64,000 nucleotides of DNA from Pseudomonadota bacterium. GTDB taxonomy: Bacteria; Desulfobacterota; JAPLJL01. Where the stretch lies: positions 3,604 to 67,603 of the forward strand of contig JAPLJI010000057.1 of assembly GCA_026388655.1 (NCBI GenBank), given 5' to 3'. Below are positions 2,964 to 32,031 of the stretch, piece by piece. The translations under genes were made by a program, and so were the position numbers. The notes under the pieces were generated by a model, which was not told the origin of the DNA, did not search any database, and saw nothing but the letters and a program-made list of their open reading frames with translations. How positions within the stretch are numbered: position 1 is the stretch's first letter; every line of letters begins with the position of its first letter.

Positions 2964-4298
2964 CTATTTATTCATGGACTCGATAAAATCGGCGTTGGTC
3001 TTGGTTCCCTGCATTTTATCCAGCATAAATTCCATCGCTTCGATCGGGGGCATCGGCTGCAGGATCTTCCGGAGAATATAGAGCCGGTTCAGGACTTCCT
3101 TGGTGAGGATCAATTCTTCCTTCCGGGTGCCGGAGCGGTTGATGTCGATCGCGGGGAAGATCCGCCGGTCGGCCAGGCGCCGATCCAGGACGATTTCCAT
3201 GTTGCCGGTGCCCTTGAACTCTTCAAAAATTACTTCGTCCATCTTGGACCCGGTTTCCACCAGGGCGGTGGCGATGATGGTCAGGCTACCCCCGTCCTCG
3301 ATATTCCGAGCGGCCCCGAAAAACCGCTTGGGGCGGTGGAGGGCGTTGGAATCCACCCCGCCGGAGAGCACCTTCCCGCTGGGAGGTACCACCGAGTTGT
3401 AAGCCCGGGCCAGCCGGGTGATGGAATCCAGCAAGATGACCACGTCTTTCTTGTGCTCGATCTGGCGCTTGGCCTTATCGAGCACCATCTCGGCCACCTG
3501 CACGTGCCGGGAAGCCGTTTCGTCAAACGTTGAGCTGATCACCTCGCCCTTGACCGAGCGCTGCATGTCGGTCACCTCCTCCGGCCGCTCGTCGATCAGT
3601 AAAACGATGAGCACGATCTCCGGGTGGTTGGCGGTGATGGAGTTGGCGATCGCCTGGAGGATCATGGTTTTCCCGGCCCGGGGCGGCGAGACGATCAGGC
3701 CCCGCTGGCCTTTGCCGATGGGGGTCAGGAGATCCATGATCCGCATGGTATAGTTTTTGGGTTCAAACTCGAGCTTGATCCGCTCGTTGGGATAGAGGGG
3801 GGTAAGGTTGTCGAAGAGCACCCGGTCGCGGACCGCTTCCGGGTCTTCGAGGTTAACTGCCTCGACCTTCAGCAGGGCGAAGTAGCGTTCCCCTTCCTTG
3901 GGGGGACGGACCTGCCCGGCCACGTTATCCCCGGTGCGGAGATCAAACCGGCGGATCTGGGAGGGGGAGACGTAAATGTCATCCGGGCCGGCCAGGTAGC
4001 TGTAGATCTGGGAGCGGAGGAACCCGAAACCGTCGGGCAGGATCTCCAGGACCCCGTCTCCGTAAATCAGGCCGTTCTGCTCGGCCTTGGCCTGGAGGAG
4101 GGAGAAAATCAAATCCTGTTTCCTCTGCCCGCTCGCCCCTTCCAGGTTCAAATCGCGGGCCAGGGACACCAGTTCCGACATCTTCATCAACTTCAATTCC
4201 CGTAGATTCAATTCCTTGTCGGAGTTGTTCTTTTTCCCTTTCCCCGTCCCTTTTTCCGACTCGATTACCTCAGTCTGCCCCTGAACCTGGGTTCCCAT
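2964..4298 (-). CDS. rho: Transcription termination factor Rho
   Basis: 444-aa ORF with the Walker A motif PPRAGKT, an OB-fold RNA-binding N-terminal domain, and the conserved Rho C-terminal RecA-like domain. Confidence 0.9.
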
Positions 4299-12587: not shown

Positions 12588-12832
12588 AAATCCCTCCTTG
12601 ATTATTCGCCCAGGTTAAAAAAATAGTTTCTCCCCCACCCGATGTCCATAACCACGAGCCGTCTAATTATAGTAATTTTCTATCTATTGCAAAATGTTTG
12701 GCCGCGTCTTGACCTCGGGTGGGGAGGGACCTCATTGGCGAAAACCTCTTTGGCCCGCAACCTAAAAATTTTCCCCCTTATTGTTATCATTAGCAACCTA
12801 ATGTACTGCGTCGAAAGTCCCTTTACATTCTT

Positions 12833-12984
12833 GTCATTCCGGGCTTGACTGAGCCTGCCCCGTATTTGATCCGGGGGAATCCAGCCTTTTAATCGGATTC
12901 CCACTGGAGTTTATCCCGCACTCTGATGCGGGATGGGAATGACCCCGCTTTTTTGCGGGCAGATAGAAGAAAGACGGGAATGAC
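12833..12984. repeat. GTCATTCC...GGAATGAC hairpin repeat element (about 112 bp core plus an extra hairpin)
   Basis: The core is about 88% identical to 59579-59690. The inverted termini gtcattccggg / cccgggaatgac match the short copies at 15940, 20202, 27407 and 35740. Confidence 0.75.
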
Positions 12985-13159
12985 GGCTTCGAAATTAATG
13001 TAACGAAGTGTTGGATGCACGACACTAAATGCGATAAGATGGGTCTACACGTTAAATCAACCCAACGCCTTCCATGGCATTAACCATGCAATCCTTGATG
13101 ATTCGAAATACCCTCAGCCCCGGTCCATTTCCGAAGATCTTCATTTCGGAATTTTACCT

Positions 13160-15136
13160 TTGTTCCATTGGCAAAAATCCATCATGAACAATTTTTTCAT
13201 GTCCGATTATAGTTATCTGCTCCTGCTGAAATCCTTTGTCACCATAATAAAAAATTCCTTCCTCGTGTCCTTTATTATCGCCTTATCGGTATCCTTGGGA
13301 AGTTACCTGTTAGAAAAACTTAAATTCAATTTCCCCTCATTATTAGAAAAGCTTGTTTGCTCGGCCGGGGTGGGCCTGGGGTTATATGCCCACCTGGTTC
13401 TCTTGATCGGGTTCCTGGGATGGTTATATCCTCAGGTTTTTTATGCAATTTTATTAATCAATTTTTTGCTATTTTATGGAAACCTTAAAAAATGGGTTCT
13501 GCAATTAAAAGAACAGAATTTGCTGGTTTTTTTCAGGTTTTCTGACTGGAAGCAGGTCTTTTTTTACGGGGGAGCGGCGGTAATTATCCTTTCTTCATTT
13601 CTGGTAAATCTTACCCCGGTTTCATTCTATGATAATCTAATTTACCACTACGGGGTTCCTAAATACTATATCGCCTCCCATCGAATCATATTCATCGAGG
13701 GAAATATTTATGCAAATTTCCCTCAAATAGCGGAAATGCTTTTTCTGCTGGGGATGATTCTGGATTCTCCCTTGACCGCCAATCTTATCCATTTTTCCCT
13801 GGGCATCTTTCTTTTGCTTACGGTTTACTCATTCAGCCGAAACCGCTGGGGCAATTCCGCCGCCAATTTCGCCATATTATTCCTGGTCATGACTCCCGGA
13901 TTAATGCAATGGATAAGCCTGCCAAACGTGGATATAGAATTCGCCTGGTTTAACCTGCTCGCCCTTTTTATTTTGCTTAAATGGTTTGATTGTCGGAGTC
14001 CGAAAATCCTGGTCCTGTCCGCGGTGTTTGCCGGGCTTTCAATCGGGGTGAAATATACCGGGCTCATTTATTCTTTGGGAATTTTTATTTTGTTGATGGC
14101 AATCGAAAATATCATCACCCGTCAGTTAAGCTCCCTTAAGTTGCTAAAAAATATTTCCATCTATTGCGGGGTCGGGTTGATTGTTTTCCTTCCTTATTTG
14201 ATCAAAAATTATCATTTCACCGGGAATCCGGTTTCCCCGGCGCTTCCTCAGGTATTCAATCCCAACGGGGATCAGACCCGTGAATACCAGGCCTTATTGC
14301 GGGACGGGAAAAACGTAACTTTCTCAAAAGATTTTCTCCATACGATTCCTCAGCTGGTAAAAACTTTCTTAAATAATACTGTTCTGGTAAAAAAATATAT
14401 CGAATTCGGATCGTTTATCGGACCCCATTTTTTAATATTCCTGCCTTTAATATTTTTTCTCCGAAGGAAATGGAAAGAAATCCGGCTCTTAATTTATTTC
14501 CTCATCCTTTACGCGGGATTTTGGATTGGCACCTTTTGGATGATTAGATTTTTATATCCGGCCATCATCGTTACCTTCATGCTCATTGGTTACGCCTTCG
14601 ATAATTTAGACAAAAAACCAGGTTATCCAAGATTACTTATGCAGGCGGTTTTTATCTTGATCTTTGCGTTAAATTTTTTCGTTTTCCTGGAAATCTTTGA
14701 TCGGACAAAATCAATAAAATTTATTTTCGAAGGGATGGATGACAAATTATATATGTCCCGGGTTCTAAGCTCTTATCCCGTAATGGAGAAAGCGAATACC
14801 GAATTGCCCCCCTCCGCGAAGATTTTATGCCTGGGGGAAACCAGAAATTTTTACCTGGATATTCAAAATATCTGCCCTTCCGTATTCAATGCCAATCCCC
14901 TGTTCAAAATCCTGAAAGAATCCAATGATGTTATAGAAATAAAGGCCGGATTAAAGCAGCTGAAAATCACCCACATCCTCTACGACCCGGATGAATTGGA
15001 ACGAATTAGCCATTTCGGTGTTTATTTCCCGCCCCGGAATGAAAATAGCAAGGCCGCGCTCTTTAACAAATTTTTGGAAGATTGTTGGCCCCCAGTTTAC
15101 GAACAAAATCGTGTTTATTTATTAGGGATTAAATAA
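13160..15136 (+). CDS. Polytopic membrane protein, probably a GT-C-fold glycosyltransferase (GT39/ArnT-like), in a sharply AT-rich insert
   Basis: 658-aa ORF with at least 12 predicted TM helices and a C-terminal soluble domain of about 150 aa. Local GC is far below the flanking DNA. The true start may be the MNNFF or MSDYS Met. Confidence 0.5.
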   Translation: MFHWQKSIMNNFFMSDYSYLLLLKSFVTIIKNSFLVSFIIALSVSLGSYLLEKLKFNFPSLLEKLVCSAGVGLGLYAHLVLLIGFLGWLYPQVFYAILLINFLLFYGNLKKWVLQLKEQNLLVFFRFSDWKQVFFYGGAAVIILSSFLVNLTPVSFYDNLIYHYGVPKYYIASHRIIFIEGNIYANFPQIAEMLFLLGMILDSPLTANLIHFSLGIFLLLTVYSFSRNRWGNSAANFAILFLVMTPGLMQWISLPNVDIEFAWFNLLALFILLKWFDCRSPKILVLSAVFAGLSIGVKYTGLIYSLGIFILLMAIENIITRQLSSLKLLKNISIYCGVGLIVFLPYLIKNYHFTGNPVSPALPQVFNPNGDQTREYQALLRDGKNVTFSKDFLHTIPQLVKTFLNNTVLVKKYIEFGSFIGPHFLIFLPLIFFLRRKWKEIRLLIYFLILYAGFWIGTFWMIRFLYPAIIVTFMLIGYAFDNLDKKPGYPRLLMQAVFILIFALNFFVFLEIFDRTKSIKFIFEGMDDKLYMSRVLSSYPVMEKANTELPPSAKILCLGETRNFYLDIQNICPSVFNANPLFKILKESNDVIEIKAGLKQLKITHILYDPDELERISHFGVYFPPRNENSKAALFNKFLEDCWPPVYEQNRVYLLGIK

Positions 15137-19895: not shown

Positions 19896-20275
19896 TGCCT
19901 ATCCACCCCTTTTTTCTGATCAATTAATTTTATCTTCGTTGGGGTTTTTTGACTAACTATCTTCCTATAACTTTTAGGCTTCTTAAACTCTTAGGCTTCT
20001 TAACTCTATTTAATATATAGTAGAAATCCCCGGGCGGGTCAAAAAGCGTCTAGGATAAAGCAATGAATAAAGTAAAATATAACCTACATGGGATAAATCA
20101 AAATAATTTTTGTCCAATTTAATATGGCAGTTATTAATTACTCGCATAATCAGGTTGCTGCGTTGCGGAGTTTACACTGAACAAAGTGAATGTGCTCCCT
20201 CGGAATGACGATAGGACGTGTCATTGCGAGCCCGAGTCCGACGAGGGCGCGGCAATCTTGAAACCAAATCTAAAA

Positions 20276-22144: not shown

Positions 22145-23526
22145 ATATTGCCCAGGGCCGCGTCCGCCAGTCTTTCCTGATCGTGCTGGACGCCTGCTTT
22201 CTTTCCCTCTCCTGGATCGCCTCCTACTGGATCCGTTTCTGGCTGACCCCCCTCTTCGACAACCCGGTCAATCACTTTCGCCCTTACTTAATCGGGCTCC
22301 CGCTGATCATCGCTTCCTGGCTCCTGATCGGGGCCGGGCTGGGGCTCTACCGCCGCCCCCGCGAGCCCCAGGGGATCGAGCAGATCCGGTCCCTCCTGAA
22401 GCTCACCCTCCTGGGGCTCCTGGTCACCATGTCGATCTCTTTCCTCTTCCGGGAGTTCGAATTCGCCCGCTCCGTGGTCCTGGTCTCCTCGCTTTCCAAC
22501 CTGGTTTTTCTCGGGCTTTCCCGGGGCATTTTCCGCCGGATCGAAAAATACCTGAAGGCCGAGGGACGGGACGGGGTCAAAGTCCTGATCGTGGGCGCCG
22601 GTTACGCCGGGGCCCGGATCCTGCAGAAACTGCAGGACCACCCCACCACCACCTACCGGGTGGTCGGATTCCTCGACGATAGTCCCGACAAGAAGGACTT
22701 CTCCATCGGCAAGGCCCGGGTGATCGGCCGGCTTAACGAAATCCGCAAGGTGGTCCAGTCCGAAGGGCTCGAAGAAATTTTCGTGGCCATCCCCAATCTC
22801 CCCCACTCCCAGATCCTCCAGCTGGTCATGGAATGCGAGGGCTTGGACGTGAATTTTCACATCGTATCCGATCTCTTCGGCGTCCTGGCCCACGAAACCC
22901 GGATCGAGCTCCTGGAGGACTTCCCCATTTTCGATCTCTCGAGCGGCCAGACTGACCGTTCCTATCGGGTGGCGAAAAGGGCTTTCGATCTCGCCCTGAC
23001 CCTGCCCGCCTCCCTGGTTTTCTTTCTCACCTACCCCCTCATCGCCCTGGCCATCCGCCTCGAGTCCCGGGGCCCGATGATCTTCAAGCAGGAAAGGGTC
23101 GGCCTGGGAGGAAAGGTTTTTATCCTTTATAAATACCGGACCATGTTCATCGACACCGCCGCTTACTCCGAGGCTCCCCGCCAGGAGGGCGATTCCCGGG
23201 TCACCCGCGTGGGCCGCTTCCTCCGGAAGACGAGTCTCGACGAGCTCCCCAACCTGCTCAACGTTCTCCGGGGGGACATGAGTCTGGTGGGACCCCGCCC
23301 GGAGATGCCCTTCATCGTGGAGAAATACCAGGAATGGCAGCGCAAGCGGCTGGAGGTCAAGCCCGGCCTGACCGGGCTCTGGCAGATTTTGGGGAGGAAG
23401 GACCTGCCCCTGCACGAAAACCTCGAGTACGACTTTTATTACATCAAGAACCGCTCCTTGCTTCTGGATTTCACGATTCTCTTGAGGACCATCCCGGCCC
23501 TGCTCATCACTCGCGGGGCGTACTAA
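22141..23526 (+). CDS. Polyprenyl-phosphate hexose-1-phosphate transferase (bacterial sugar transferase, WbaP/PssY-like)
   Basis: N-terminal TM segments, a Rossmann-like linker, and the C-terminal Bac_transf domain ([24 protein letters not shown]...SLVGPRPE). ATGA overlap with the upstream gene. Confidence 0.8.
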
Positions 23527-23624
23527 TAAAACATTTTCCCGCCTGCCCGGAAGGAAATTATCGGTTATAATAATTATATAGTTTGGTGGTTGTTCGTTGT
23601 GCCCACATAACCTCGTCAATAAAT

Positions 23625-23930
23625 ATGAATAAATTTGGAATTGCCCTCCCCGTAGAACAAATAAAATCTTTCTGCCAAAAGTGGAAAGTAAAGGAATTCT
23701 CACTCTTCGGCTCCGTACTTCGTCCCGATTTCAATCCCGAAAGCGACGTGGATGTTCTAGTGGTCTTTGCCGAAAATGCTGGCTGGGATCTCTGGGACAT
23801 CATCGAGATGCGGGATGAGCTGAAAACCATTTTTGGCCGGGAAGTGGATCTGGTGGAAAAACGCGCCCTGCGGAATCCTTTCCGGAAGCATGAAATCCTT
23901 CAGACCCACGAGATCGTCTATGCCTCCTGA
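23625..23930 (+). CDS. mntA: MntA-type nucleotidyltransferase antitoxin
   Basis: FGSVLRPD...SDVDVLVVF is the minimal nucleotidyltransferase (GS-x9-DxD) signature. The ORF extends upstream to 23583. Its stop overlaps the start of the next gene. Confidence 0.75.
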   Translation: MNKFGIALPVEQIKSFCQKWKVKEFSLFGSVLRPDFNPESDVDVLVVFAENAGWDLWDIIEMRDELKTIFGREVDLVEKRALRNPFRKHEILQTHEIVYAS

Positions 23931-24285
23931 AAAACGCGACCCAGCTCTCCTGTGGGACATCCTTAACACCGCCAAAAAGACGATCAAATCCATCGAAGGG
24001 CTTGAACTCAAGGATTACTTGGCGGATGAGAACCTCAGACTGACGGTTGAACGCCGGATCGAAATTATCGGGGAAGCCGCCCGGCGAACCAGCGAAGCAT
24101 TCCGGAACAGCCATCCCGAGATCCCTTGGAAATCAATGATCGGCCAGCGCAACGTGATGGCCCACGAGTATGACGAGATTGATCACGAGCGGGTATACAA
24201 TCTTGTCAAGCAACACCTGCCAGCATTGGTCAGCCTTCTGGAACCGCTCGTCCCTCCTCCTCCACCGGAAGAAAAAGTCTCCTAA
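23920..24285 (+). CDS. hepT: HepT-type HEPN toxin (DUF86)
   Basis: Contains RNVMAHEY, an R-x4-H-x-Y HEPN motif. ATGCCTCCTGA overlap with mntA. The long ORF from 23833 is probably an upstream extension. Confidence 0.75.
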   Translation: MPPEKRDPALLWDILNTAKKTIKSIEGLELKDYLADENLRLTVERRIEIIGEAARRTSEAFRNSHPEIPWKSMIGQRNVMAHEYDEIDHERVYNLVKQHLPALVSLLEPLVPPPPPEEKVS

Positions 24286-24589
24286 CGATTTCTCGGATTT
24301 CCCAACCTCATCGTAATAAATATACGTTCTGCCCTCCGCCTGCAGGGGGTAATAAACCCAACCCCAAGGTAGGTTTAGATCAAGATTATTAAAAAGCGCC
24401 AAATATTGGGGAGTCTTTCAAGGTAAACCCCTATTTACCCTATACCTTGAGAGTTCTTCCCTCGATCCCGAAGGTCTCGGGACTGAAGGGAGGGACGAAA
24501 ACCCCGGAGGGATGGGAAAAGAACCCAAATGGGCAGGATAAAAACCTCTACGAGCCCCCGTCTCGAATTTTATGAGATTGTCTGAGTAT

Positions 24590-24961
24590 TTAGCGAAAAA
24601 CCTTTAAAAGAAAGAGATTCAATCTTCTCAATTTATCTTTACTTGCATGCCGAAGCAAAGAAATGATATTTATCATAACTTCTTCTTTTTCCTTTTCATT
24701 TGGCAGAAGATCGAATGAGAAAAGTTCCCCAAGTTTAACCCCAAGAACACTGGCAAGATTATCCATTGTTTTCAAGGTAACATTTATCTGGCCCCTCTCT
24801 ATCGCCCCATAATATTTAGGATTAATCCCGCCTCGTTCAGCCACTTCCTCTTGAGTTAAACCTTTGGCTTTTCTTATTGATCTCAGCCTTTCCCCAAAAG
24901 CCTTATAAATATTTACCAAATCCCACCTCCTGGTTTTTATAGTAGGAGGTTGGATTAACAA
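24590..24961 (-). CDS. XRE-family helix-turn-helix transcriptional regulator
   Basis: LRSIRKAKGLTQEEVAERGGINPKYYGAIERGQINVTLKTMDNLASVLGV is a classic HTH_3 domain. It is divergent from the two downstream plus-strand genes. Confidence 0.75.
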   Translation of the reverse strand: MLIQPPTIKTRRWDLVNIYKAFGERLRSIRKAKGLTQEEVAERGGINPKYYGAIERGQINVTLKTMDNLASVLGVKLGELFSFDLLPNEKEKEEVMINIISLLRHASKDKLRRLNLFLLKVFR

Positions 24962-25229
24962 GCAAAACCATATTATAAATAGGATTGTTTGTTGATTATC
25001 CTATTTATATATGGTATTTATAATTTCATAGAAGGGCATGACCGGTTATTTCTTTAACTTCGTGGGTAATAAAAGGTTTTATTTTAATTCCAATGAATGA
25101 TAAATGGCGAAAAGGAATCATAAACTTAGATGATTCAAAATCAATTTACTTAAGAGCCCCTCCTTGTTTTGGGTAGGGGAAGTTACTTTTTAAAAAAATA
25201 AATATAAATACCAATAAGGGGGGCACAAA

Positions 25230-25628
25230 ATGTTCAAAAGGTTGAGTTTGATTTGCGGTTCGATTCTTTTTTCATTATTGATTGGTTGCGCGGTTAATGG
25301 AACTATTCCAAAAAATTATTACATTAGCACGGGGACTTTAACTACACCGGATTATCAATTGAGAGAATCGGTAAGTGGACAAAGTTGCTCCGGTTTTTAT
25401 CTTTGGGGTTTTAAAGGTGGGAAAATTGGCAGCGTTCAGGAAGCGATAGAAAATGCAATAAAAAATAATCCGAGGTTACGGGAACAAGGTGATGGAATTG
25501 TGATGTATAAGGAGAAAACCAGTCTTACTGCTTACGCTTTTTTATGTCTCTTAACTTATGGATTGGTTTGCCCAAATGTTAATTGTGTTAATGTTCAAGG
25601 AACTATGGTAAAGAAATTCGAAAAGTAG
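25230..25628 (+). CDS. Small predicted lipoprotein of unknown function
   Basis: Signal peptide with lipobox LLIGC. AT-rich. It lies between the XRE regulator and the HEPN-like gene. Confidence 0.5.
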   Translation: MFKRLSLICGSILFSLLIGCAVNGTIPKNYYISTGTLTTPDYQLRESVSGQSCSGFYLWGFKGGKIGSVQEAIENAIKNNPRLREQGDGIVMYKEKTSLTAYAFLCLLTYGLVCPNVNCVNVQGTMVKKFEK

Positions 25629-25714
25629 TTTTGTTTGAAATAAGTTCGCAGTCCTCATCCTTTTCGGGGGTGTAGTAGTGGCCCTCAACGACCGCCCCAC
25701 AGGGAAGAATTATC

Positions 25715-26569
25715 ATGAGCGACCTGATTTTTGAAATAACGAATTTTTCTTTTTTCGAGCAACTGGAATTCGGGAGAATAAGAGTAATTCCTAAAAACGA
25801 TGCAGAAAATTATTTAAAAGAATTAAAGGAAAAAGCAAATCGAAGTGGTTTTTTTCTGCCGCCAGATAATACGCCTACGCATGAAGTCACAATTGGGCCA
25901 TCTTCATGCCGGGAATCAAATCAAGATATGGAGTTTGTTTGCTGGTTACTTTCCTTCTTCAGTAAGCGATTGGTTCTCGGCTGGGATAGGGTTTATCATA
26001 ATCCGACAAATGTTGTTAATAAATGCTTAATTCCAAATAAGTCAAATTTGGAGAAAGTCTTAAAGCATTTTCTTGAAAGGTATGACTGCGCATATTATAG
26101 GAAGGTTCGGAGTAAGTATTTCAAATTTAATCCAAAAGAAGAATTTGAAGAACAGGCAATATTAAGAGCTATCCTGTATCAGCATGTTAGGCAGTATGAT
26201 TATTGGAGTAAGGACTGGATCCATGCCGCAATCGCATTTATGGAACATGACAACTTAAAAATGGTATTAGCAAATCATTCTGGCGATTACGAATTAGATG
26301 GCAAAAAACTTTTCAATAAATATGGACTTTATCAACCCAAAAAAGCCAATGAATTTCGCGATCTAAGAAATGAATTTTTCCATCGGGGAACATTTTATGG
26401 GGTTCTGTTTGATTTAAATGGAAACATTAAAAGTAATGACTTAATGAAAGAGATGACCCACCTTCGAGCACTTAACCAGCGTTTAGTATGCTTGGCTTTT
26501 GATTATGAGAATAAATTTACCAAAACCCCTTGGGACGATCGAGCAACTCACCCATTTGACATCATTTAA
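25715..26569 (+). CDS. Uncharacterised 284-aa protein with a C-terminal R-x4-H motif; candidate HEPN-domain Abi2/AbiD-like abortive-infection effector
   Basis: FRDLRNEFFHRG (R218-x4-H223) resembles the phi-RNxxxH HEPN signature. Low GC, no TM helices. Sits in an island with another HEPN toxin and an XRE regulator. Confidence 0.4.
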   Translation: MSDLIFEITNFSFFEQLEFGRIRVIPKNDAENYLKELKEKANRSGFFLPPDNTPTHEVTIGPSSCRESNQDMEFVCWLLSFFSKRLVLGWDRVYHNPTNVVNKCLIPNKSNLEKVLKHFLERYDCAYYRKVRSKYFKFNPKEEFEEQAILRAILYQHVRQYDYWSKDWIHAAIAFMEHDNLKMVLANHSGDYELDGKKLFNKYGLYQPKKANEFRDLRNEFFHRGTFYGVLFDLNGNIKSNDLMKEMTHLRALNQRLVCLAFDYENKFTKTPWDDRATHPFDII

Positions 26570-26882
26570 TTTCATCTGTCGCGGAAATTCGAGGGTCATC
26601 TAATGAATCTCCCTGCGGCAGAGACCGCAGGGTATCTGGGAAGGAAGCCTTCATCCCCGTGGCAAGACCACGGGGAATTCGGCAAAATCCTTGGTTAAAA
26701 GTCGCCCTAAAAAAGCTGCTTCTCTTTTCTAAAGATAAAATTTTTATTTTAATTCTCAATCTCGGTAAGAAAGAAATTTAGTTCTGGATTTTCCGCTTCT
26801 CAATTTATTTTCACCCTCCCCCTACTTCGCTAATCCATCCTTCGCTAAAGCTTCGGAGGACAGGAGCTTCGAAGGGCAGGCC

Positions 26883-26925
26883 ATCGTCCCCTCCCATCAA
26901 GGGAGGGGACGATGATTTTTATTAA
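26883..26925 (+). terminator. Perfect GC-rich hairpin followed by a T-run (catcgtcccctccc-atcaa-gggaggggacgatg-atttttatt)
   Basis: 14-bp perfect stem and a U-tract, lying downstream of the 25715-26569 gene. Confidence 0.5.
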
Positions 26926-26957
26926 CAATAACTTCCTGCCCACCCGTTAAAACAAGC

Positions 26958-26993
26958 AGTCTACTCTAAAGTAGACTACTCCAAAGTAGACTA
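26958..26993. repeat. Tandem palindromic site agtctactctaaagtagact / actccaaagtagacta
   Basis: 7-bp inverted repeat arms AGTCTAC...GTAGACT, with the GTAGACTA half-site repeated 16 bp later. Lies in ORF-free AT-rich DNA. Confidence 0.5.
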
Positions 26994-27406
26994 AACTTTC
27001 ATTGGTTATGATGAACCTGATTTCCTCATTTCTTGGCGGCGAGAATACCGGCGACTTGCGGGCGAAGTTCTTTCTCAAACTATTACCATAATGAAGAAAA
27101 TAACTATGTTTTATTATATTTTCTATGGCAAATGTTCGTGTAAGTCAAACAATTTCCATTTGTAATCTAATCGATAGTACAATGAAAAAACACTCTTTAG
27201 TGAATTACCCCGCTCTTACGGGCAAGGCATCACGGACAATCGTTACGTTTTAGCTTTTGTTAAAATGCTGGTAGGGGCCGATGCCCCCATCGGCCCACAT
27301 AATTGGTGCGTTCGGGGAACGCACCCTACAAAAAACCGTTGCAATGAAGCTCCCCGCGGCAAGACCGCGGGGTATCTAAATCAAAAAGACTCTTATGTTG
27401 TCTATC

Positions 27407-27474
27407 GTCATTCCTGCGGAAGCAGGAATCCAGAAAAACAAAAAAACTAGATTCCGCATCAAGTGCGGAATGAC
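27407..27474. repeat. GTCATTCC-hairpin repeat (short copy)
   Basis: gtcattcctgcggaagcaggaatccag ... gattccgcatcaagtgcggaatgac. Confidence 0.7.
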
Positions 27475-27601
27475 GGAATAAGGCAACCCTGTGGCAAGAC
27501 CACGGGGAATGGCAAGTTCATCCCCGCCCTTGACGGGGTTTTCGTATTTAACTATGAACGTTGAACCGTGAATCTTTAACCGGCCTATTTACAAAAACGA
27601 A

Positions 27602-30600
27602 TTATTTGTCCTGCCCCATTTCCTTGAGGACCTGGCGGAGTTCGTTCCAGTGCCGCTTGCTCTCCAGGCGGGAAAGGAGGGTCATGGCGCAGGGGACCAC
27701 GAAGAGGGTGAGGAGGGTGGAGACCAGCACACCCCCGATCACCGCGATCGCCATCGGGATCCGGATCTCCGCACCCGGGCCCAGGGCCAGGGCCGGCGGG
27801 ATGGCCGCGGCGATGGTGGCGATCGAGGTCATTAAAATCGGGCGGAGCCGGATCGGGCAGGCGTCCAGCAGGGCCTCCCGGAGCTCCATCCCCTGCTCGC
27901 GGCGCTTGTTGGTGAAATCCACCAGGAGGATGGAATTCTTTTTCACGATCCCCATGAGCAGGATCAGCCCGATCATGCTGTAAATATTGAGCGAGCGGCC
28001 AGCCAGATAGAGGGCGATGAACGCCCCCGAGACGCTGAAGGGCAGGGCCAGGAGCACGGTGACGGGATGGACAAAGCTCTTGAACTGGGAGCCCAGAACC
28101 ATGTACGCCACCACGATTCCCAGGATGAGGGCGAAAATCAGGCTCTGAAACGATTCGGTGAAGGTCTGCGCGCTTCCGGCCAGGACGGTCCGGTAGCCCT
28201 CCGGAAGCACCTGCTTGCCGATTTTTTCGACCGTGGCGATGGCCTCGGCCTGGGATTTCCCGGGAGCGATATTCGCCGTGATCCGTACGGCCCGCTCGCG
28301 GTTCCGGCGCGTGATCGACACCACCGTGGGCTTCTCGACCACCTTCACCACCTCGGAGAGACGCAGGAGTTCCCCGCGGTTGTTCCGGATCCAGATCCGG
28401 CCGATATCCTTGGTCTTGTTTCTTTCCTCCGAGGCCAGCCGAACCCGGATATCGTAACGGCGTTCCCCCTCGGTGTACTGGCCTACCCGGACCCCGCCGA
28501 TCAGTGAATTGATCGACCGGGCCACCGTGGCCACGTCCACCCCGTGTTCCCCGCAGGCCTCCCGGTCCGGGAGCACCCGGATCTCGGGCGCGCCGATCAC
28601 ATAGTCGGTATCGATATCAACCATCAGGCCGGAAACCTCCATCTGCTTCATGATCTCCCGGGAAAACCCCACCAGTCTGTCCCAGTCCGGGCCCCGCACG
28701 GTGAACTCGATCGGGAACCCGCGCATGGAGGCGAAACCCGACATCGAGGGATCCTGGATCACTACCTTGCGCAAGCCCTGGATCTTATTCAGGCCGGCGC
28801 GCCAGACCCCCATCAGCTCCTGCTGGGTCAGAGGGGCCTTCCGGGGAGGAACCACGGGCCGCTCCTTGAAGGGGTAAAGGGTCACGAACATCATCCCCGT
28901 GTTCACATCCCCGCCGCCCATGCCCCCGATGTCGCCGAAATAACGGAGCACCTCCGGACGGTGCGAGAGATAATCCTCAATCTGTTTTAAGGCGGCATCG
29001 GTATAGGCCAGGGAGGAGCCCGGCGGGGCCTGGAAACGGATGAGGAGGATACCCTGGTCCTGGGGCGGGATAAACTCCTTTTTCAGGCGGGGTAGAAATT
29101 GATAATAGGACGCGAAGAAAAAGGCCGCCGCCCCGAGAAGCACCAGCCACCGGTATTCCAACGCCCCGGAAAGGGCGTAACGGTAACCCTTCCGGAGGGC
29201 GTCCATCCCGCGGTCCACCCCCCGCCCGAGAAACGTCCGCCGTCCGACCTTCAGGAATTGGGAGGTTCGCATTGGGGTCAGGGTCAGGGCCTCGAGCAGC
29301 GAGAGCAACACCGCGACCGACATCGTCACCCCAAACTGGAAGAAATACTTTCCGATAATCCCGGACATGAAAGCCACCGGGACGAAGATGGCCAGCACCG
29401 CGATCGAGGTGGCGATCGCGGCGAAGGTGATCTCGTTGGCCCCGGTCATGGCCGCCTTGATCCGGCTCAACCCCTTTTCCCGGTAACGGCTGATGTTTTC
29501 GAGCATCATGATCGCGTCGTCGACTACGATCCCCACCGCCAGGGTCAGCCCCAGGATGGTAAAGGTGTTCAGGGTAAATCCGAGAAAATAAATGACAATG
29601 AAGGAACCGATGATCGAGGTGGGAATGGCCAGGAGGATGTTGATCGTGGCCGTCCAGGAGCCCAGGAAAAACCAGCAGACCAGGGAGGTCAGGAGCGCGG
29701 ACAGGATCAGGGTGAAATTCATCTCCCCGACCGCCTCCTCGGTGAACTTGGTGGTATCGAAATTCAGGGCCAGTTCCATCCCCGCGGGCAGTTCCTTCTG
29801 GACCTCGGCCATGCGCTTCTTGACCTCGTGGGCCACCGCCACCGCGTTGGAACCCCGCTGCTTACGGATACCCAACCCGACCGCGGTATCGCCCATGGTC
29901 CGGGAGAGGCGGCGGATATCGGCCAGGCCTTCTTCCACCCTCCCCACGTCCTTGAGCCGGAGGATCTTGAAAATCGGCCCGCCTCCGGCCCGGGCGGGGA
30001 TGATGATGTTTTCAAATTCCTTGACGTCCCCCGCCTCCCCGGTCACCCGGACGTTTCTTTCCCGCTCCGAGCCTTCGATCAGCCCGGCCGGGAGCTCCAC
30101 GTGCTGCATCTGGATCGCGTTCATCACGTCATCGACCGTGATCTCGAGCCGCTCCATCTTCTTCGCGTCGAGCCAGACCCGCAGGTTCGGATCCGTGAAT
30201 CCTCCCAGGAAGACCTCGCCGACGCCGGAAATGGTCTGGAATTTGTCCTTCAGGTGATCGCGGGTGTATTCCATCAGCTCCCGGAGGGACTTTTTCCCCC
30301 GGAGCGAGAGCCAGAGGATGGGCTGGTCCTCGGGGTTGGACTTATGATATTCGACCGGGTCCATCTCCCGCGGGAGATCCCGCGCAATCTGGGCCAGGCG
30401 GGCCTGGATCTCCTGGAGGGCCACATCAATGTTCTTGCTCAGGACGAACTCCACCGAGATCGAGGCCCGGCCGTACCTCGCCGAGGAGGAAACCTCCTTG
30501 ACCCCCTCGATCCCCATGATCGCCTCTTCCATCTGATCCACGATCTCGGTTTCCATCACCTCCGGGGCGGCTCCCTGCATCAGGGCGGAGATACCGATGA

Positions 30601-30730
30601 TCGGAGAATCCACGTCCGGCATCAGGCCCATCCCCATCCGGCGGTAGGAAATCACCCCGAAGAGGATCAGCCCGATCATCAGCATCCAGGCGAAAACCGG
30701 GTTCCGGATCGCGCGGTCGGCCAGGGTCAT
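27602..30730 (-). CDS. RND-superfamily efflux permease (AcrB/HAE1-like)
   Basis: 1042-aa ORF with a 12-TM, two-large-periplasmic-loop architecture and a typical N-terminus MTLADRAIRNPVFAWMLMIGLILFG. Confidence 0.9.
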   Translation of the reverse strand: MTLADRAIRNPVFAWMLMIGLILFGVISYRRMGMGLMPDVDSPIIGISALMQGAAPEVMETEIVDQMEEAIMGIEGVKEVSSSARYGRASISVEFVLSKNIDVALQEIQARLAQIARDLPREMDPVEYHKSNPEDQPILWLSLRGKKSLRELMEYTRDHLKDKFQTISGVGEVFLGGFTDPNLRVWLDAKKMERLEITVDDVMNAIQMQHVELPAGLIEGSERERNVRVTGEAGDVKEFENIIIPARAGGGPIFKILRLKDVGRVEEGLADIRRLSRTMGDTAVGLGIRKQRGSNAVAVAHEVKKRMAEVQKELPAGMELALNFDTTKFTEEAVGEMNFTLILSALLTSLVCWFFLGSWTATINILLAIPTSIIGSFIVIYFLGFTLNTFTILGLTLAVGIVVDDAIMMLENISRYREKGLSRIKAAMTGANEITFAAIATSIAVLAIFVPVAFMSGIIGKYFFQFGVTMSVAVLLSLLEALTLTPMRTSQFLKVGRRTFLGRGVDRGMDALRKGYRYALSGALEYRWLVLLGAAAFFFASYYQFLPRLKKEFIPPQDQGILLIRFQAPPGSSLAYTDAALKQIEDYLSHRPEVLRYFGDIGGMGGGDVNTGMMFVTLYPFKERPVVPPRKAPLTQQELMGVWRAGLNKIQGLRKVVIQDPSMSGFASMRGFPIEFTVRGPDWDRLVGFSREIMKQMEVSGLMVDIDTDYVIGAPEIRVLPDREACGEHGVDVATVARSINSLIGGVRVGQYTEGERRYDIRVRLASEERNKTKDIGRIWIRNNRGELLRLSEVVKVVEKPTVVSITRRNRERAVRITANIAPGKSQAEAIATVEKIGKQVLPEGYRTVLAGSAQTFTESFQSLIFALILGIVVAYMVLGSQFKSFVHPVTVLLALPFSVSGAFIALYLAGRSLNIYSMIGLILLMGIVKKNSILLVDFTNKRREQGMELREALLDACPIRLRPILMTSIATIAAAIPPALALGPGAEIRIPMAIAVIGGVLVSTLLTLFVVPCAMTLLSRLESKRHWNELRQVLKEMGQDK

Positions 30731-32031
30731 GGTTCACCCCCAAATCTCGAGATGGCTCCGGCCGCCACCGCGAGACGGATGGCATTGAGCTTGGCCGCGT
30801 ACTGGACTTGATCCCTCCGGAGCCGGGCGGCGTAAAGATCGGTGAGGGCCTGGAGCACTTCCAGATTAGAGACCAGGCCCCGGCGATAATCCCCGGCTTG
30901 AAGTTTATAATTGCGATCGGCCAGGGCGACTACCTTTTCGTAATAGTTCAATTCAGACAAGAAGGCCCGGAGGCTATCCCAGGCGTTGCGCACTTCGGTC
31001 TCGACCTGCCGTTCCTGGAGCTTGAGCGCAAGTTCCGTCGCGCGCAGTCGGGAATTGGCCTCTCGAATCGAGGATTGGACCTGGCCCCAGGAGTAGAGCG
31101 GGACTTCGATCGCCGCCATAAAATCCCACTTGATTGGCCCCTGACCCTGATTCCCTTCCCGGACCGGGTAATAATTAGTATTGATGCTCAGGTTAGGATA
31201 ATGACCTGACCGGGCCACCTTCACCGCCGCTTGCGAGGTCGCCATTACTTCCTTCTGGGCCAGGATATCTGGCCTTTGCCGGGCCGAATCCAGATAGCGG
31301 GAAAGATCGTTGGGCTGGTCCGGGAGCGGGATGGTATCCGCGAGAGGAACATCTTTGTCGGCCCCGGTGAAGAAGGCCAGGGACTCCCTTGCCAATACCC
31401 GCGCTTGTTCCAATTCTTCCCGATTGGCCTCGATCCCCGCGAGTTGGCTCTGGGCCGCCACCACCTCCGCCTCGCGGGAACGCCCGATCCGCTCCCGTTC
31501 GGAAAGCTCTTTGATCCGGTCCTGCATCAGCGCCTGTTGGGATTTTGTCACCTGGATCTGGTTCTCAATCTGGATCACGTTCCAGAAGGCCTGGGCCACA
31601 TCGACGAGGAGACTCTGCTCGGCCCGCTTCATCTCATATTCCCGCCGCCGGGTGATGGCGGTGGCTGACCTCAAAGCGGCCATCTCCCGGTAACCGGTTA
31701 AAGCCGGTAATTGGAGTTTAAAGGCCCCCTGGGGTTGCCGTAATTTAGTTTGTGAAGGGTCCTGGTAGAGTTCCTGCCATTGAAATGAGAGCCGGGGAGG
31801 AATCTGGGCCCAGGTCTGCCGGTATTGTTCCTCGGCTTGCCTGATGACTTCTTCGCTTATGGCAATATTTTCGCTTTGCTTTAGCGCCCTTTCATAACAC
31901 TGCCGGAGGTCCAGCGCTCCCAACGGCGCCGCTTTTTCTTCCGCAGCCGGGGCGGATACCGAAAGAAGCATAATCATGATCGCCGACGCGGTGATTTTTT
32001 TCGGATTAAGACACATTGGCCTGAAAATCAT
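30727..32031 (-). CDS. TolC-like outer membrane efflux protein (OEP family)
   Basis: Signal peptide, two OEP repeats, and coiled alpha-helical segments. Overlaps the RND gene by 4 nt. Confidence 0.8.
   Translation of the reverse strand: MIFRPMCLNPKKITASAIMIMLLSVSAPAAEEKAAPLGALDLRQCYERALKQSENIAISEEVIRQAEEQYRQTWAQIPPRLSFQWQELYQDPSQTKLRQPQGAFKLQLPALTGYREMAALRSATAITRRREYEMKRAEQSLLVDVAQAFWNVIQIENQIQVTKSQQALMQDRIKELSERERIGRSREAEVVAAQSQLAGIEANREELEQARVLARESLAFFTGADKDVPLADTIPLPDQPNDLSRYLDSARQRPDILAQKEVMATSQAAVKVARSGHYPNLSINTNYYPVREGNQGQGPIKWDFMAAIEVPLYSWGQVQSSIREANSRLRATELALKLQERQVETEVRNAWDSLRAFLSELNYYEKVVALADRNYKLQAGDYRRGLVSNLEVLQALTDLYAARLRRDQVQYAAKLNAIRLAVAAGAISRFGGEP

What the first reader, a model, noticed from the sequence alone, without database searches (positions are those of the whole stretch)
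23560..27600. AT-rich candidate defence island holding two HEPN-type proteins, an XRE regulator, and a decayed hairpin-rich tail
A roughly 4-kb segment with GC far below its flanks sits between a polysaccharide sugar-transferase gene and an RND pump. It carries an overlapping MntA/HepT pair in which the HepT has the RNVMAHEY motif. It also carries a divergently transcribed XRE regulator, a small lipoprotein, and a 284-aa protein with its own R-x4-H motif. After these come about 1 kb without ORFs but with a terminator-like hairpin, tandem palindromes and several GC hairpin repeats. This composition is the hallmark of a horizontally acquired defence or abortive-infection module. The XRE, lipoprotein and HEPN-like trio is not a combination I recognise as a named system.
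Basis: partly seen in the sequence, partly recalled or inferred. Interest (0 to 1): 0.8.

Follow-up and report, generated by a model that had tools for sequence, protein, structure and literature searches.

The report
Defence-gene hotspot with uncatalogued HEPN family
A 4-kb foreign, AT-rich insert between two housekeeping genes holds a known toxin-antitoxin pair, the scar of a deleted second pair, and a regulator-lipoprotein-nuclease module whose 284-residue protein belongs to a small HEPN RNase-like family, missing from current catalogues, that in other bacteria usually sits inside restriction-modification operons.

Summary
Window 23527-27601 (41% GC; flanks 58%) lies between the convergent stop codons of a sugar-transferase gene and an RND pump gene. 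A related genome has only 342 unrelated bases there, so the segment is an insertion hotspot.

It is a mosaic:
- an intact MntA/HepT type VII toxin-antitoxin pair (GC3 about 0.6);
- a very AT-rich module (GC3 0.32) of an XRE regulator, a lipoprotein and a 284-aa protein;
- a roughly 1-kb gene-free tail. A closer relative carries an AbiEi/AbiEii pair at this position. The window keeps only the last 15 codons of AbiEii, plus strain-variable hairpin repeats.

Relatives mostly lie directly after hsdS or beside other restriction-modification genes. The XRE and lipoprotein accompany it only in this lineage, so the trio is not a conserved system.

Most likely it is a latent HEPN RNase effector, a new family of a known kind. 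No function was tested.

The parts
23527..27601 (.). Whole variable segment between the convergent stop codons of the sugar-transferase and RND pump genes (4075 bp, 41.2% GC).
   Evidence: Composition. The flanks align to L027 exactly up to 23526 and from 27599, with only 342 unrelated bases between them there. No flanking direct repeats and no integrase.
23625..23930 (+). MntA-type minimal nucleotidyltransferase antitoxin (101 aa from the ATG; the mechanical ORF starts at 23583).
   Evidence: PF01909 E 6.6e-19; NCBIfam MntA_antitoxin E 1.1e-12, below its cut-off; PADLOC PDC-S09 E 4e-27. GS-x-DxD motif (LFGSVLRPDFNPESDVDV) read. The L001 orthologue is 95% identical, dN/dS 0.09.
23920..24285 (+). 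HepT HEPN RNase toxin (121 aa from the ATG; overlaps the MntA stop by 11 nt), with the motif RNVMAHEY (Rx4HxY).
   Evidence: PF01934 E 3.7e-24. Sequence. Intact here, but carries a 1-bp frameshift in L001 and L002.
24590..24919 (-). XRE-family HTH regulator (109 aa from a TTG preceded by GGAGG; the mechanical ORF extends to 24961). It is transcribed divergently from the lipoprotein gene.
   Evidence: HTH_3 E 1.7e-16. Best PADLOC matches are R-M 'Control_protein' models, E 2.5e-14. 98% identical to the L001 copy.
24974..25009 (.). Operator-like perfect inverted repeat, TATAAATAGGAT-N12-ATCCTATTTATA, in the divergent promoter region.
   Evidence: A 10-nt version of the arms is conserved in L001. 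Binding by the XRE is inferred, not shown.
25230..25628 (+). 132-aa lipoprotein (lipobox LIGC; four further conserved cysteines), distantly DUF6567-like.
   Evidence: Only three clusters among 5.8 billion proteins. Alignment. All three members give weak DUF6567 matches (best E 4.9e-4, below the cut-off). dN/dS 0.43 against L001.
25715..26569 (+). 284-aa protein of an uncatalogued HEPN family: an N-terminal alpha/beta domain (about residues 1-105) followed by a helical HEPN-like domain with invariant R218-N219-x3-H223.
26570..26890 (.). Window-specific stretch, absent from L001, that carries two G+C-rich hairpins (26611-26632 and 26654-26676).
   Evidence: blastn finds no L001 match for window 26563-26890. 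Hairpins.
26882..26914 (+). Intrinsic-terminator-like hairpin (14-bp stem, then ATTTTTATTA), probably the end of the lipoprotein/HEPN transcription unit.
   Evidence: The terminator scan as a whole was not enriched over shuffles, so only the unusual stem length singles this site out.
26957..26993 (-). AT-rich near-palindrome of 15-nt tandem units. On the minus strand it reads as a terminator-like hairpin just downstream of the AbiEii remnant.
   Evidence: Conserved in L001 downstream of the AbiEii stop.
27026..27070 (-). Remnant of AbiEii: its last 14 codons plus the stop codon. The deletion junction lies at 27070|27071.
   Evidence: tblastn with L001 AbiEii residues 278-292 gives 93% identity. 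Window 27070|27071 joins L001 10868|12538. The missing 1669 bp in L001 encode AbiEii (PF08843, E 1.4e-37) and AbiEi (PF09407/PF13338).
27349..27510 (.). Cluster of hairpin repeats: two more copies of the 27-nt CCCYGYGGCAAGACCRCGGGG element (27349-27375, 27484-27510) and two ATTCCYGC...GCRGGAAT hairpins (27410-27429, 27451-27471). L001 has no counterpart for most of 27358-27516; only 27407-27475 finds a weak match there (77% over 69 nt).
   Evidence: A 27-nt stretch (27407-27433) is 100% identical to a site in the unrelated locus L004.

Best explanation
The segment is an insertion hotspot for toxin-antitoxin and defence cassettes, lying between two convergently transcribed core genes. It holds three independent units.

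(1) An intact MntA/HepT type VII toxin-antitoxin pair. From published work on this family, MntA is expected to keep the HepT RNase inactive by AMPylating the tyrosine of its Rx4HxY motif.

(2) A strongly AT-rich unit: an XRE repressor transcribed divergently from a lipoprotein gene and a 284-aa gene. The 284-aa protein is the functional core. It belongs to a small family, absent from current catalogues, with an N-terminal alpha/beta domain and a C-terminal HEPN domain carrying an invariant RNx3H site.
- I infer that it is a metal-independent endoRNase that is held latent.
- I infer that, once activated, probably as a dimer, it cleaves tRNA, rRNA or mRNA and stops growth of an infected cell. 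The N-terminal domain would act as the sensor or regulatory part.
- In most relatives the gene is translationally coupled to hsdS, or sits next to other restriction-modification genes. That suggests a PrrC-like back-up role behind restriction.
- In this lineage the gene has lost the R-M partner. It is probably kept in check transcriptionally by the controller-like XRE, acting through the perfect inverted repeat in the divergent promoter.

(3) The scar of an AbiEi/AbiEii type IV pair, deleted here, surrounded by REP-like hairpin repeats that come and go between strains.

Shown here: anatomy, foreign composition, the empty site in a relative, the deletion scar, family membership, conserved motif, predicted fold, and gene neighbourhoods.

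Inferred only: RNase activity, latency, the trigger, XRE control, and any role of the lipoprotein.
For: Island and hotspot.
- GC and GC3 contrast with the flanks.
- Empty site in L027.
- Same island plus AbiE in L001 and L002.
- AbiEii 3' remnant at the junction.
- The three units differ in GC3: 0.56-0.62; 0.32-0.33; and AbiE in L001 at about 56% GC.

MntA/HepT.
- Pfam matches above threshold, and the motif is present.

HEPN assignment of the 284-aa protein.
- R218, N219 and H223 are invariant in 39 sequences that are only 18-27% identical to it outside its own clade.
- The AF2 model built on that alignment has pLDDT 82.7 and pTM 0.85.
- The motif sits at the C-terminal end of helix 210-223, before the loop to the last long helix. 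PMC3710099 places Rx4-6H at the end of helix 3.
- The residue after R is polar (N), as in most catalytic HEPN families.
- Four of 39 members give faint HEPN_Apea matches.

The gene is under purifying selection: dN/dS 0.19 against the L001 orthologue.

Defence context, in 12 neighbourhoods examined.
- Directly after hsdS in type I operons: P0015, P0016, P0029. P0033 lies in a similar operon, one gene further from hsdS.
- Overlapping the stop codon of an MmeI/Eco57I-type IIG enzyme.
- Beside a ThaI/methylase pair.
- Overlapping a PIN_10 gene, with an HsdS-like (Methylase_S) gene two genes away.
- Near SLFN_AlbA_2, SIR2_2, or toxin-antitoxin genes.

XRE.
- Its best PADLOC matches are R-M controller proteins.
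- A perfect 12-nt inverted repeat lies in the divergent promoter and is conserved in L001.
Against: - There is no experimental or direct evidence of RNase activity or phage defence for any family member.
- No HEPN sequence model reaches significance (best E 0.012).
- The window lacks an adjacent R-M system, so the PrrC-like logic cannot apply here as such.
- The XRE and lipoprotein are absent from all other family contexts, so their functional link to the HEPN gene is unproven.
- The N-terminal domain has invariant H56 and R85 that this model does not explain.
Confidence: 0.6

Rival explanations
1. The 284-aa protein is the toxin of a conventional toxin-antitoxin addiction module, with the XRE (or the lipoprotein) as its antitoxin. 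The unit would persist as selfish DNA and would have no dedicated anti-phage role.
For: - XRE-type HTH proteins are frequent antitoxins. The XRE here also gives weak matches to HipB, MqsA and Y4mF antitoxin models.
- The hotspot otherwise collects toxin-antitoxin pairs: MntA/HepT, AbiE.
- The P0003 locus is surrounded by HicA, PemK and HEPN/NTase pairs.
Against: - The XRE is transcribed divergently, not in an operon with the putative toxin.
- XRE homologues are absent from all 12 other family contexts. There the gene stands alone or follows R-M genes without an obvious antitoxin.
- Between the window and L001 the XRE is 98% identical while the HEPN gene has dS 0.63. That does not suggest a tightly co-evolving protein pair.
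Confidence: 0.2
2. The family is a non-catalytic or non-RNase accessory subunit of restriction-modification systems, for example a regulator or DNA-binding adaptor. Its HEPN-like bundle would be structural, and the copy in this window would be an orphan left after loss of its R-M partner.
For: - The gene is tightly coupled to hsdS or a type IIG enzyme, with 4-bp overlaps.
- Some HEPN domains are substrate-binding rather than catalytic (PMC3710099).
- No sequence-level match to a catalytic HEPN family.
Against: - Strict invariance of R, N and H in the canonical spacing across very divergent members is the signature of catalytic HEPN domains. PMC3710099 states that the motif is lost in the non-catalytic ones.
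- The family also occurs without any R-M genes and remains under purifying selection there.
Confidence: 0.12
3. The AT-rich segment is ancestral and was deleted in L027. The low GC would reflect local mutational or expression constraints rather than horizontal acquisition.
For: - No integrase, transposase or flanking direct repeats were found.
- Two related genomes share the island at the same site.
Against: - GC3 of 0.32 against 0.75-0.85 in the adjacent genes is far outside anything else in the window.
- The three sub-units have three different compositions.
- The closest relatives of the 284-aa gene lie in unrelated contexts.
- The island is 85.6% identical between the window and L001, whereas the flanks are 96.6-99% identical.
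Confidence: 0.08

Closest known systems
PrrC / RloC anticodon nucleases (HEPN RNases embedded in type I R-M operons)
   Same: A HEPN-type RNx3H effector gene inserted in type I R-M operons next to hsdS. A latent back-up role behind restriction is the natural inference (PMC3710099).
   Different: The family has no ABC-ATPase domain; it has a roughly 105-residue alpha/beta N-terminal domain instead. It has no sequence similarity to PrrC or RloC models. The copy in this window is not next to any R-M genes.
ApeA (single-protein HEPN defence system; Pfam HEPN_Apea PF18739)
   Same: A stand-alone protein with an N-terminal non-HEPN domain and a C-terminal HEPN domain. Some ApeA genes are embedded in R-M operons. 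It is the only HEPN model that gives any signal at all: 4 of 39 members, best E 0.012; PADLOC Cas13-ApeA, E 0.35.
   Different: The matches are far below threshold, and the window protein gives none. PMC3710099 describes ApeA as having a roughly 300-aa beta-rich N-terminal domain. This family is about 300 aa in total.
MntA/HepT type VII toxin-antitoxin system
   Different: The 284-aa protein has no adjacent nucleotidyltransferase of its own, and has FHR instead of HxY after the histidine. It also carries about 140 extra N-terminal residues and does not match the HepT sequence model.
AbiEi/AbiEii type IV toxin-antitoxin / abortive-infection pair
   Same: It occupies the tail position in the closest relative. 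The window retains its last 15 codons and flanking non-coding DNA.
   Different: It is deleted here (1669 bp missing), so it is not functional in this genome.
R-M controller (C) proteins
   Same: The XRE gives its best PADLOC matches to 'Control_protein' models (E 2.5e-14). It has a perfect inverted repeat just upstream of its own gene, resembling a C-box.
   Different: There is no R-M system next to it, it has a C-terminal extension, and binding is untested.

Membership tests
HEPN superfamily (284-aa protein) | Up-down four-helix bundle fold, with an insert between helices 2 and 3 | tested here: met
HEPN superfamily (284-aa protein) | Rx4-6H motif at the end of helix 3, with a polar residue (N, D or H) after R | tested here: met
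   R218-N219-E-F-F-H223 is invariant in all 39 aligned members. It sits at the C-terminal end of helix 210-223. The criterion is taken from PMC3710099.
HEPN superfamily (284-aa protein) | Conserved acidic residue in helix 2, close to the motif | tested here: inconclusive
   D179 is invariant and E169 nearly invariant, both in helix 167-188. Their spatial proximity to R218/H223 could not be inspected.
HEPN superfamily (284-aa protein) | Significant match to an existing HEPN sequence model | tested here: not met
   The window protein gives no match. Among 39 members the best is HEPN_Apea, E 0.012, in 4 members. PADLOC and NCBIfam give nothing significant. No PDB match by sequence profile.
HEPN superfamily (284-aa protein) | Metal-independent endoribonuclease activity that depends on R and H | not testable with these tools
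   Needs biochemistry.
   No PF07751 hit at E up to 1 for the window protein or for any of the 39 relatives.
PrrC/RloC-type R-M-linked anticodon nuclease | N-terminal ABC-ATPase fused to the HEPN domain | tested here: not met
   No ATPase domain in the Pfam or NCBIfam scans. The N-terminal domain is a roughly 105-residue alpha/beta unit.
PrrC/RloC-type R-M-linked anticodon nuclease | Gene embedded in an R-M operon | tested here: inconclusive
   Met for relatives: seven of the 12 contexts examined have R-M subunits within two genes. Not met for the window copy or its two closest clades.
MntA/HepT type VII toxin-antitoxin (genes at 23625-24285) | Minimal nucleotidyltransferase with a GSx(n)DxD motif, upstream of and overlapping a HepT with Rx4HxY | tested here: met
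   PF01909 E 6.6e-19 and PF01934 E 3.7e-24, both above the Pfam cut-offs. Motifs GSVLRPDFNPESDVD and RNVMAHEY, and an 11-nt overlap. The NCBIfam equivalog scores are below their cut-offs (47.8 and 44.2 against 60).
MntA/HepT type VII toxin-antitoxin (genes at 23625-24285) | AMPylation of the HepT tyrosine by MntA | not testable with these tools
   Established for other members of the family (my own knowledge; see also the PDB entry 8xdj, 'AMPylated HEPN toxin').
AbiEi/AbiEii (tail) | Intact AbiEii nucleotidyltransferase toxin and AbiEi antitoxin genes | tested here: not met
   Only residues 278-291 of AbiEii and its stop codon remain, at 27070-27026. The full pair is present in L001 and L002.
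Conserved three-gene XRE-lipoprotein-HEPN system | Co-occurrence of the three genes across independent lineages | tested here: not met
   The lipoprotein has only three clusters in the database. tblastn finds XRE or lipoprotein homologues only in L001 and L002 among the 41 loci held, which include 12 independent family contexts. The gene upstream of P0003 is an unrelated 249-aa membrane protein.

The most novel reading that the evidence does not exclude
The roughly 300-aa family is a new kind of stand-alone sensor-effector. Its N-terminal alpha/beta domain (invariant H56, R85, and the DGFxYPP and RLQFHDWW motifs) would directly sense a phage product or the state of the adjacent R-M complex, and so unlock the HEPN RNase. 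This would be a PrrC-like guard of restriction built without any ATPase. In this lineage the guard has been rewired: it has lost its R-M partner and been placed under a controller-type XRE, next to a lipoprotein that might couple it to events at the cell envelope.
Probability: 0.15. Interest if true: 0.6.

Novelty: new member of a known kind. Interest (0 to 1): 0.42.

Why it matters
HEPN RNases are the effectors of many immune systems, including Cas13, Csm6, PrrC, RloC, ApeA, DARNA and HepT. New families keep yielding new triggers and RNA targets.

This analysis defines a compact family of about 300 aa that current defence-gene catalogues miss (Pfam 2025, NCBIfam 2026, PADLOC 2.0). It gives the family's invariant residues and a confident model. 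It also shows that the family usually sits in the accessory slot of restriction-modification operons. That makes a concrete, testable candidate for a second line of defence behind restriction.

The locus is also a clean natural example of a defence and toxin-antitoxin hotspot seen in three states: empty; MntA/HepT plus the HEPN module; and the same plus AbiE. Cassette gain, frameshift decay and deletion are all visible between close relatives.

The practical value is modest. The family is rare and known only from metagenomes, and HEPN genes linked to R-M systems are an established theme.

Tried and rejected
- **Direct family scans of the 284-aa protein.** Pfam, PADLOC and NCBIfam gave nothing. 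Scanning all 39 relatives gave only faint HEPN_Apea and Cas13-ApeA signals. The Abi_2 idea was dropped.
- **PDB sequence-profile searches.** Only chance hits.
- **First AF2 run.** With three sequences it failed (pLDDT 35). It became usable only after the profile search enlarged the family.
- **Rfam and tRNA scans of the island.** No RNA family and no tRNA integration site. The tail is therefore not a known ncRNA locus.
- **Promoter and terminator scans.** Not enriched over shuffled sequence. Only the 14-bp-stem hairpin is notable.
- **Island boundaries.** No flanking direct or inverted repeats of 11 nt or more (one 10-nt chance match), and no recombinase ORF.
- **Upstream gene in the P0003 loci.** I tested whether the 249-aa gene there is related to the lipoprotein. 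It is not (E 0.9).
- **Lipoprotein against the PDB.** Only low-complexity TPR artefacts, with no stretch passing threshold.
- **DARNA/PD-T7-3.** Considered as a possible identity and rejected. It has an N-terminal HEPN and a 300-aa C-terminal domain, 456 aa in all.
- **dN/dS script.** It mis-framed HepT, which led to the L001 frameshift. It also gave an odd value for the OEP gene, which I did not resolve.

Full report
**1. The observation**

The ORF map and composition profile confirm the description. A Bac_transf/CoA_binding_3 sugar-transferase gene ends at 23526 on the plus strand (Pfam E 1.3e-61). A 1042-aa RND pump gene on the minus strand ends at 27602.

The 4075 bases between the two stop codons are 41.2% GC, against 57.6% for the rest of the window. 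This is the lowest stretch of that length in the window. Third-codon-position GC separates three classes:
- flanking genes, 0.75-0.85;
- MntA and HepT, 0.56 and 0.62;
- the XRE, lipoprotein and 284-aa genes, 0.32-0.33.

**2. The genes**

MntA (23625-23930) matches PF01909 at 6.6e-19. HepT (23920-24285) matches PF01934 at 3.7e-24 and carries QRNVMAHEY. The two genes overlap by 11 nt. The NCBIfam equivalog models for MntA and HepT match but fall below their cut-offs.

The XRE gene (24590-24919, minus strand; most likely starting at a TTG seven bases after GGAGG) matches HTH_3 at 1.7e-16. Its best PADLOC matches are R-M controller proteins at 2.5e-14. Just upstream of it, in the 310-bp divergent promoter region, lies a perfect inverted repeat, TATAAATAGGAT-N12-ATCCTATTTATA (24974-25009). 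A 10-nt version of the arms is kept in the relative L001.

The 132-aa ORF has a canonical LIGC lipobox and conserved cysteines. It has only two other homologue clusters among 5.8 billion proteins. All three members give weak, sub-threshold matches to DUF6567.

**3. The 284-aa protein**

It matches nothing in Pfam, PADLOC or NCBIfam. A word-indexed search found only itself and two homologues. An exhaustive phmmer search of 1.84 billion cluster representatives added two weak hits. A profile built from these five recovered 45 clusters, nearly all 280-320 aa and none with a Pfam domain.

In the 39-sequence alignment the invariant residues are H56, R85, L86, W168, D179, R218, N219, H223 and W273. 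The consensus around the motif is LRNxLFHE.

AlphaFold with three sequences failed (pLDDT 35). With the 39-sequence alignment it gave pLDDT 82.7 and pTM 0.85. The model has an N-terminal alpha/beta domain (strands 4-9, 17-26, 54-60; helices 30-40, 68-83) followed by a helical domain.

- with AbiV, RnlA, LsoA and Las1 further down.

The reference analysis of the superfamily (PMC3710099) gives three criteria. Rx4-6H lies at the end of helix 3. The residue after R is usually N, D or H. A conserved acidic residue sits in helix 2. Here R218-N219-x3-H223 closes helix 210-223. D179 is invariant in helix 167-188. A short helix (196-203) occupies the typical insert position.

I therefore assign the protein to the HEPN superfamily as a family not represented in the libraries searched. 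The only sequence-level echo is a faint HEPN_Apea signal in four of 39 members (E 0.012).

**4. Where the family lives**

Twelve independent neighbourhoods were examined.
- P0015, P0016 and P0029 lie directly after hsdS in hsdM-hsdS-X(-hsdR) operons, and P0029 overlaps hsdS by 4 bp.
- P0033 is separated from hsdS by one gene.
- P0032 overlaps the stop codon of an MmeI/Eco57I-type IIG enzyme.
- P0017 is beside a ThaI/methylase pair.
- P0044 overlaps a PIN_10 gene, with an HsdS-like (Methylase_S) gene two genes away.
- P0042 precedes a SLFN_AlbA_2 gene.
- P0040 is near SIR2_2.
- P0003, the nearest clade to the window's, lies among HicA, PemK and HEPN/NTase toxin-antitoxin pairs.

This is the accessory slot known from PrrC. 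PMC3710099 counts at least 16 HEPN clades linked to R-M systems and proposes that they act as a second line of defence when restriction is neutralised.

Neither the XRE nor the lipoprotein has a homologue in any of these other loci. The gene upstream of P0003 is an unrelated membrane protein. The trio is therefore a lineage-specific arrangement, not a conserved system.

**5. The locus in relatives**

L001 and L002 come from sediment metagenomes. Their flanks are 96.6-99% identical to the window. They carry the same island at the same low GC, but only 85.6% identical.

Divergence inside the island is uneven:
- XRE, dS 0.05;
- MntA, dS 0.28;
- lipoprotein, dS 0.20;
- 284-aa gene, dS 0.63 with dN/dS 0.19.

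This pattern suggests allelic exchange of the effector gene while it remains under purifying selection.

HepT carries a 1-bp frameshift in L001 and L002 but is intact in the window.

L001 and L002 also have an AbiEii/AbiEi pair on the minus strand (PF08843 at 1.4e-37; PF09407/PF13338). Window position 27070|27071 joins L001 10868|12538. The last 14 codons and stop codon of AbiEii survive at 27070-27026 with 93% identity. So 1669 bp were deleted in the window's lineage.

A more distant relative gives the empty site. L027 is the MAG STA_72, with a transferase 87% identical in protein. It has the transferase stop, 342 unrelated bases, and then the RND stop.

No tRNA gene, integrase or flanking repeat marks the island.

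**6. The tail**

The tail has three kinds of content.
- Conserved non-coding DNA that flanks the AbiE cassette in L001 (26891-27357 and 27517-27583, 82-93% identical).
- Back-to-back terminator-like hairpins for the two convergent units (26882-26914 on the plus strand, 26993-26957 on the minus strand).
- Stretches absent or nearly absent from L001 (26563-26890 and 27358-27516), which carry most of the G+C-rich hairpins.

Three copies of a 27-nt element, CCCYGYGGCAAGACCRCGGGG, occur only in the tail. The 19-nt degenerate core used for the scan is expected 0.09 times by chance in the window.

ATTCCYGC-loop-GCRGGAAT hairpins occur here and at four other intergenic sites in the window. They also occur in unrelated loci (L004, L001), and L027's empty-site spacer contains a similar GTCATTCCTGCG...GCGGGAATCCAG sequence. 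One 27-nt stretch is identical to a site in L004. They behave like REP-type dispersed hairpins, not like decayed coding sequence.

Rfam found no RNA family in the region.

**7. Interpretation**

The most economical reading is a hotspot between convergent genes that accumulates and loses toxin-antitoxin and defence cassettes.

Its one non-trivial component is the HEPN-family gene. I infer a latent RNase effector whose N-terminal domain senses or regulates. In most relatives it is coupled to restriction. Here it is uncoupled and probably repressed by the controller-like XRE.

RNase activity, the trigger, XRE control and any role for the lipoprotein are inferences.

The rivals are a plain toxin-antitoxin addiction module, a non-catalytic R-M accessory protein, and an ancestral region deleted in L027. 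Each is listed with its evidence and judged less likely.

**8. Novelty and score**

The island type, MntA/HepT and AbiE are well known. The 284-aa family is new to the catalogues searched, but it belongs to a well-populated kind: HEPN effectors linked to R-M and defence islands. A specialist would find it useful rather than surprising. Interest 0.42.

Noticed in passing
L001 7894-8258 and L002 69-433: The HepT orthologue in the closest relatives has a 1-bp deletion after about codon 24. The toxin gene is therefore frameshifted there, while its MntA partner stays intact (95% identical). The window copy is intact.
   Followed up: yes
window 25715-26569 versus 24590-24919: Divergence from L001 is very uneven inside the island. 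The XRE has dS 0.05 (98% aa identity), while the HEPN-family gene 800 bp away has dS 0.63 (76% aa identity, plus a 16-residue insertion in L001). This suggests recombinational replacement of the effector allele.
   Followed up: partly
window 12913, 15942, 27410, 27451, 35743, 35779; L004 710 and 837; L001 19609; L027 about 3020-3090: Short ATTCCYGC-loop-GCRGGAAT hairpins, often within GTCATTCC...GGAATCCAG, recur in intergenic DNA of this genome and of unrelated metagenomic contigs. They look like a widely dispersed REP-like element.
   Followed up: partly
window 12800-14900: A second low-GC patch (36-44% GC) largely coincides with a 658-aa polytopic membrane protein ORF (13160-15136). It lies upstream of the Wzy-like and sugar-transferase genes and may be a horizontally exchanged polysaccharide-locus gene.
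   Followed up: no
L015 1033-2219 and L016 756-1848: In the type I R-M operon that carries family member P0015, an AbiEi/AbiEii pair sits between hsdR and hsdM. It is the same cassette type that neighbours the family member in L001. In L016 the AbiEii gene is truncated.
   Followed up: no
window 19900-20011: About 110 bp of the low-GC intergenic region between the HSP20-like gene and the Wzy/TPR gene does not align with L001, although both sides are 97-99% identical. This is another small indel-variable spacer.
   Followed up: no
window 30727-32031 versus L001 16436-17758: The outer-membrane factor (OEP) gene gave only about 68% aa identity and dS 0.82 in my script, while the adjacent RND gene is 99% identical. 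I did not check whether this is real mosaic divergence or an alignment or start-site artefact.
   Followed up: no
L024 2314-3919 (also L025, L026): Between family member P0029 and hsdR, the type I R-M operon carries a Fic_N gene, a DUF6883/DUF4926 pair and a DUF559/MTES_1575 gene. This is a dense stack of accessory toxin-like genes inside one R-M operon.
   Followed up: no
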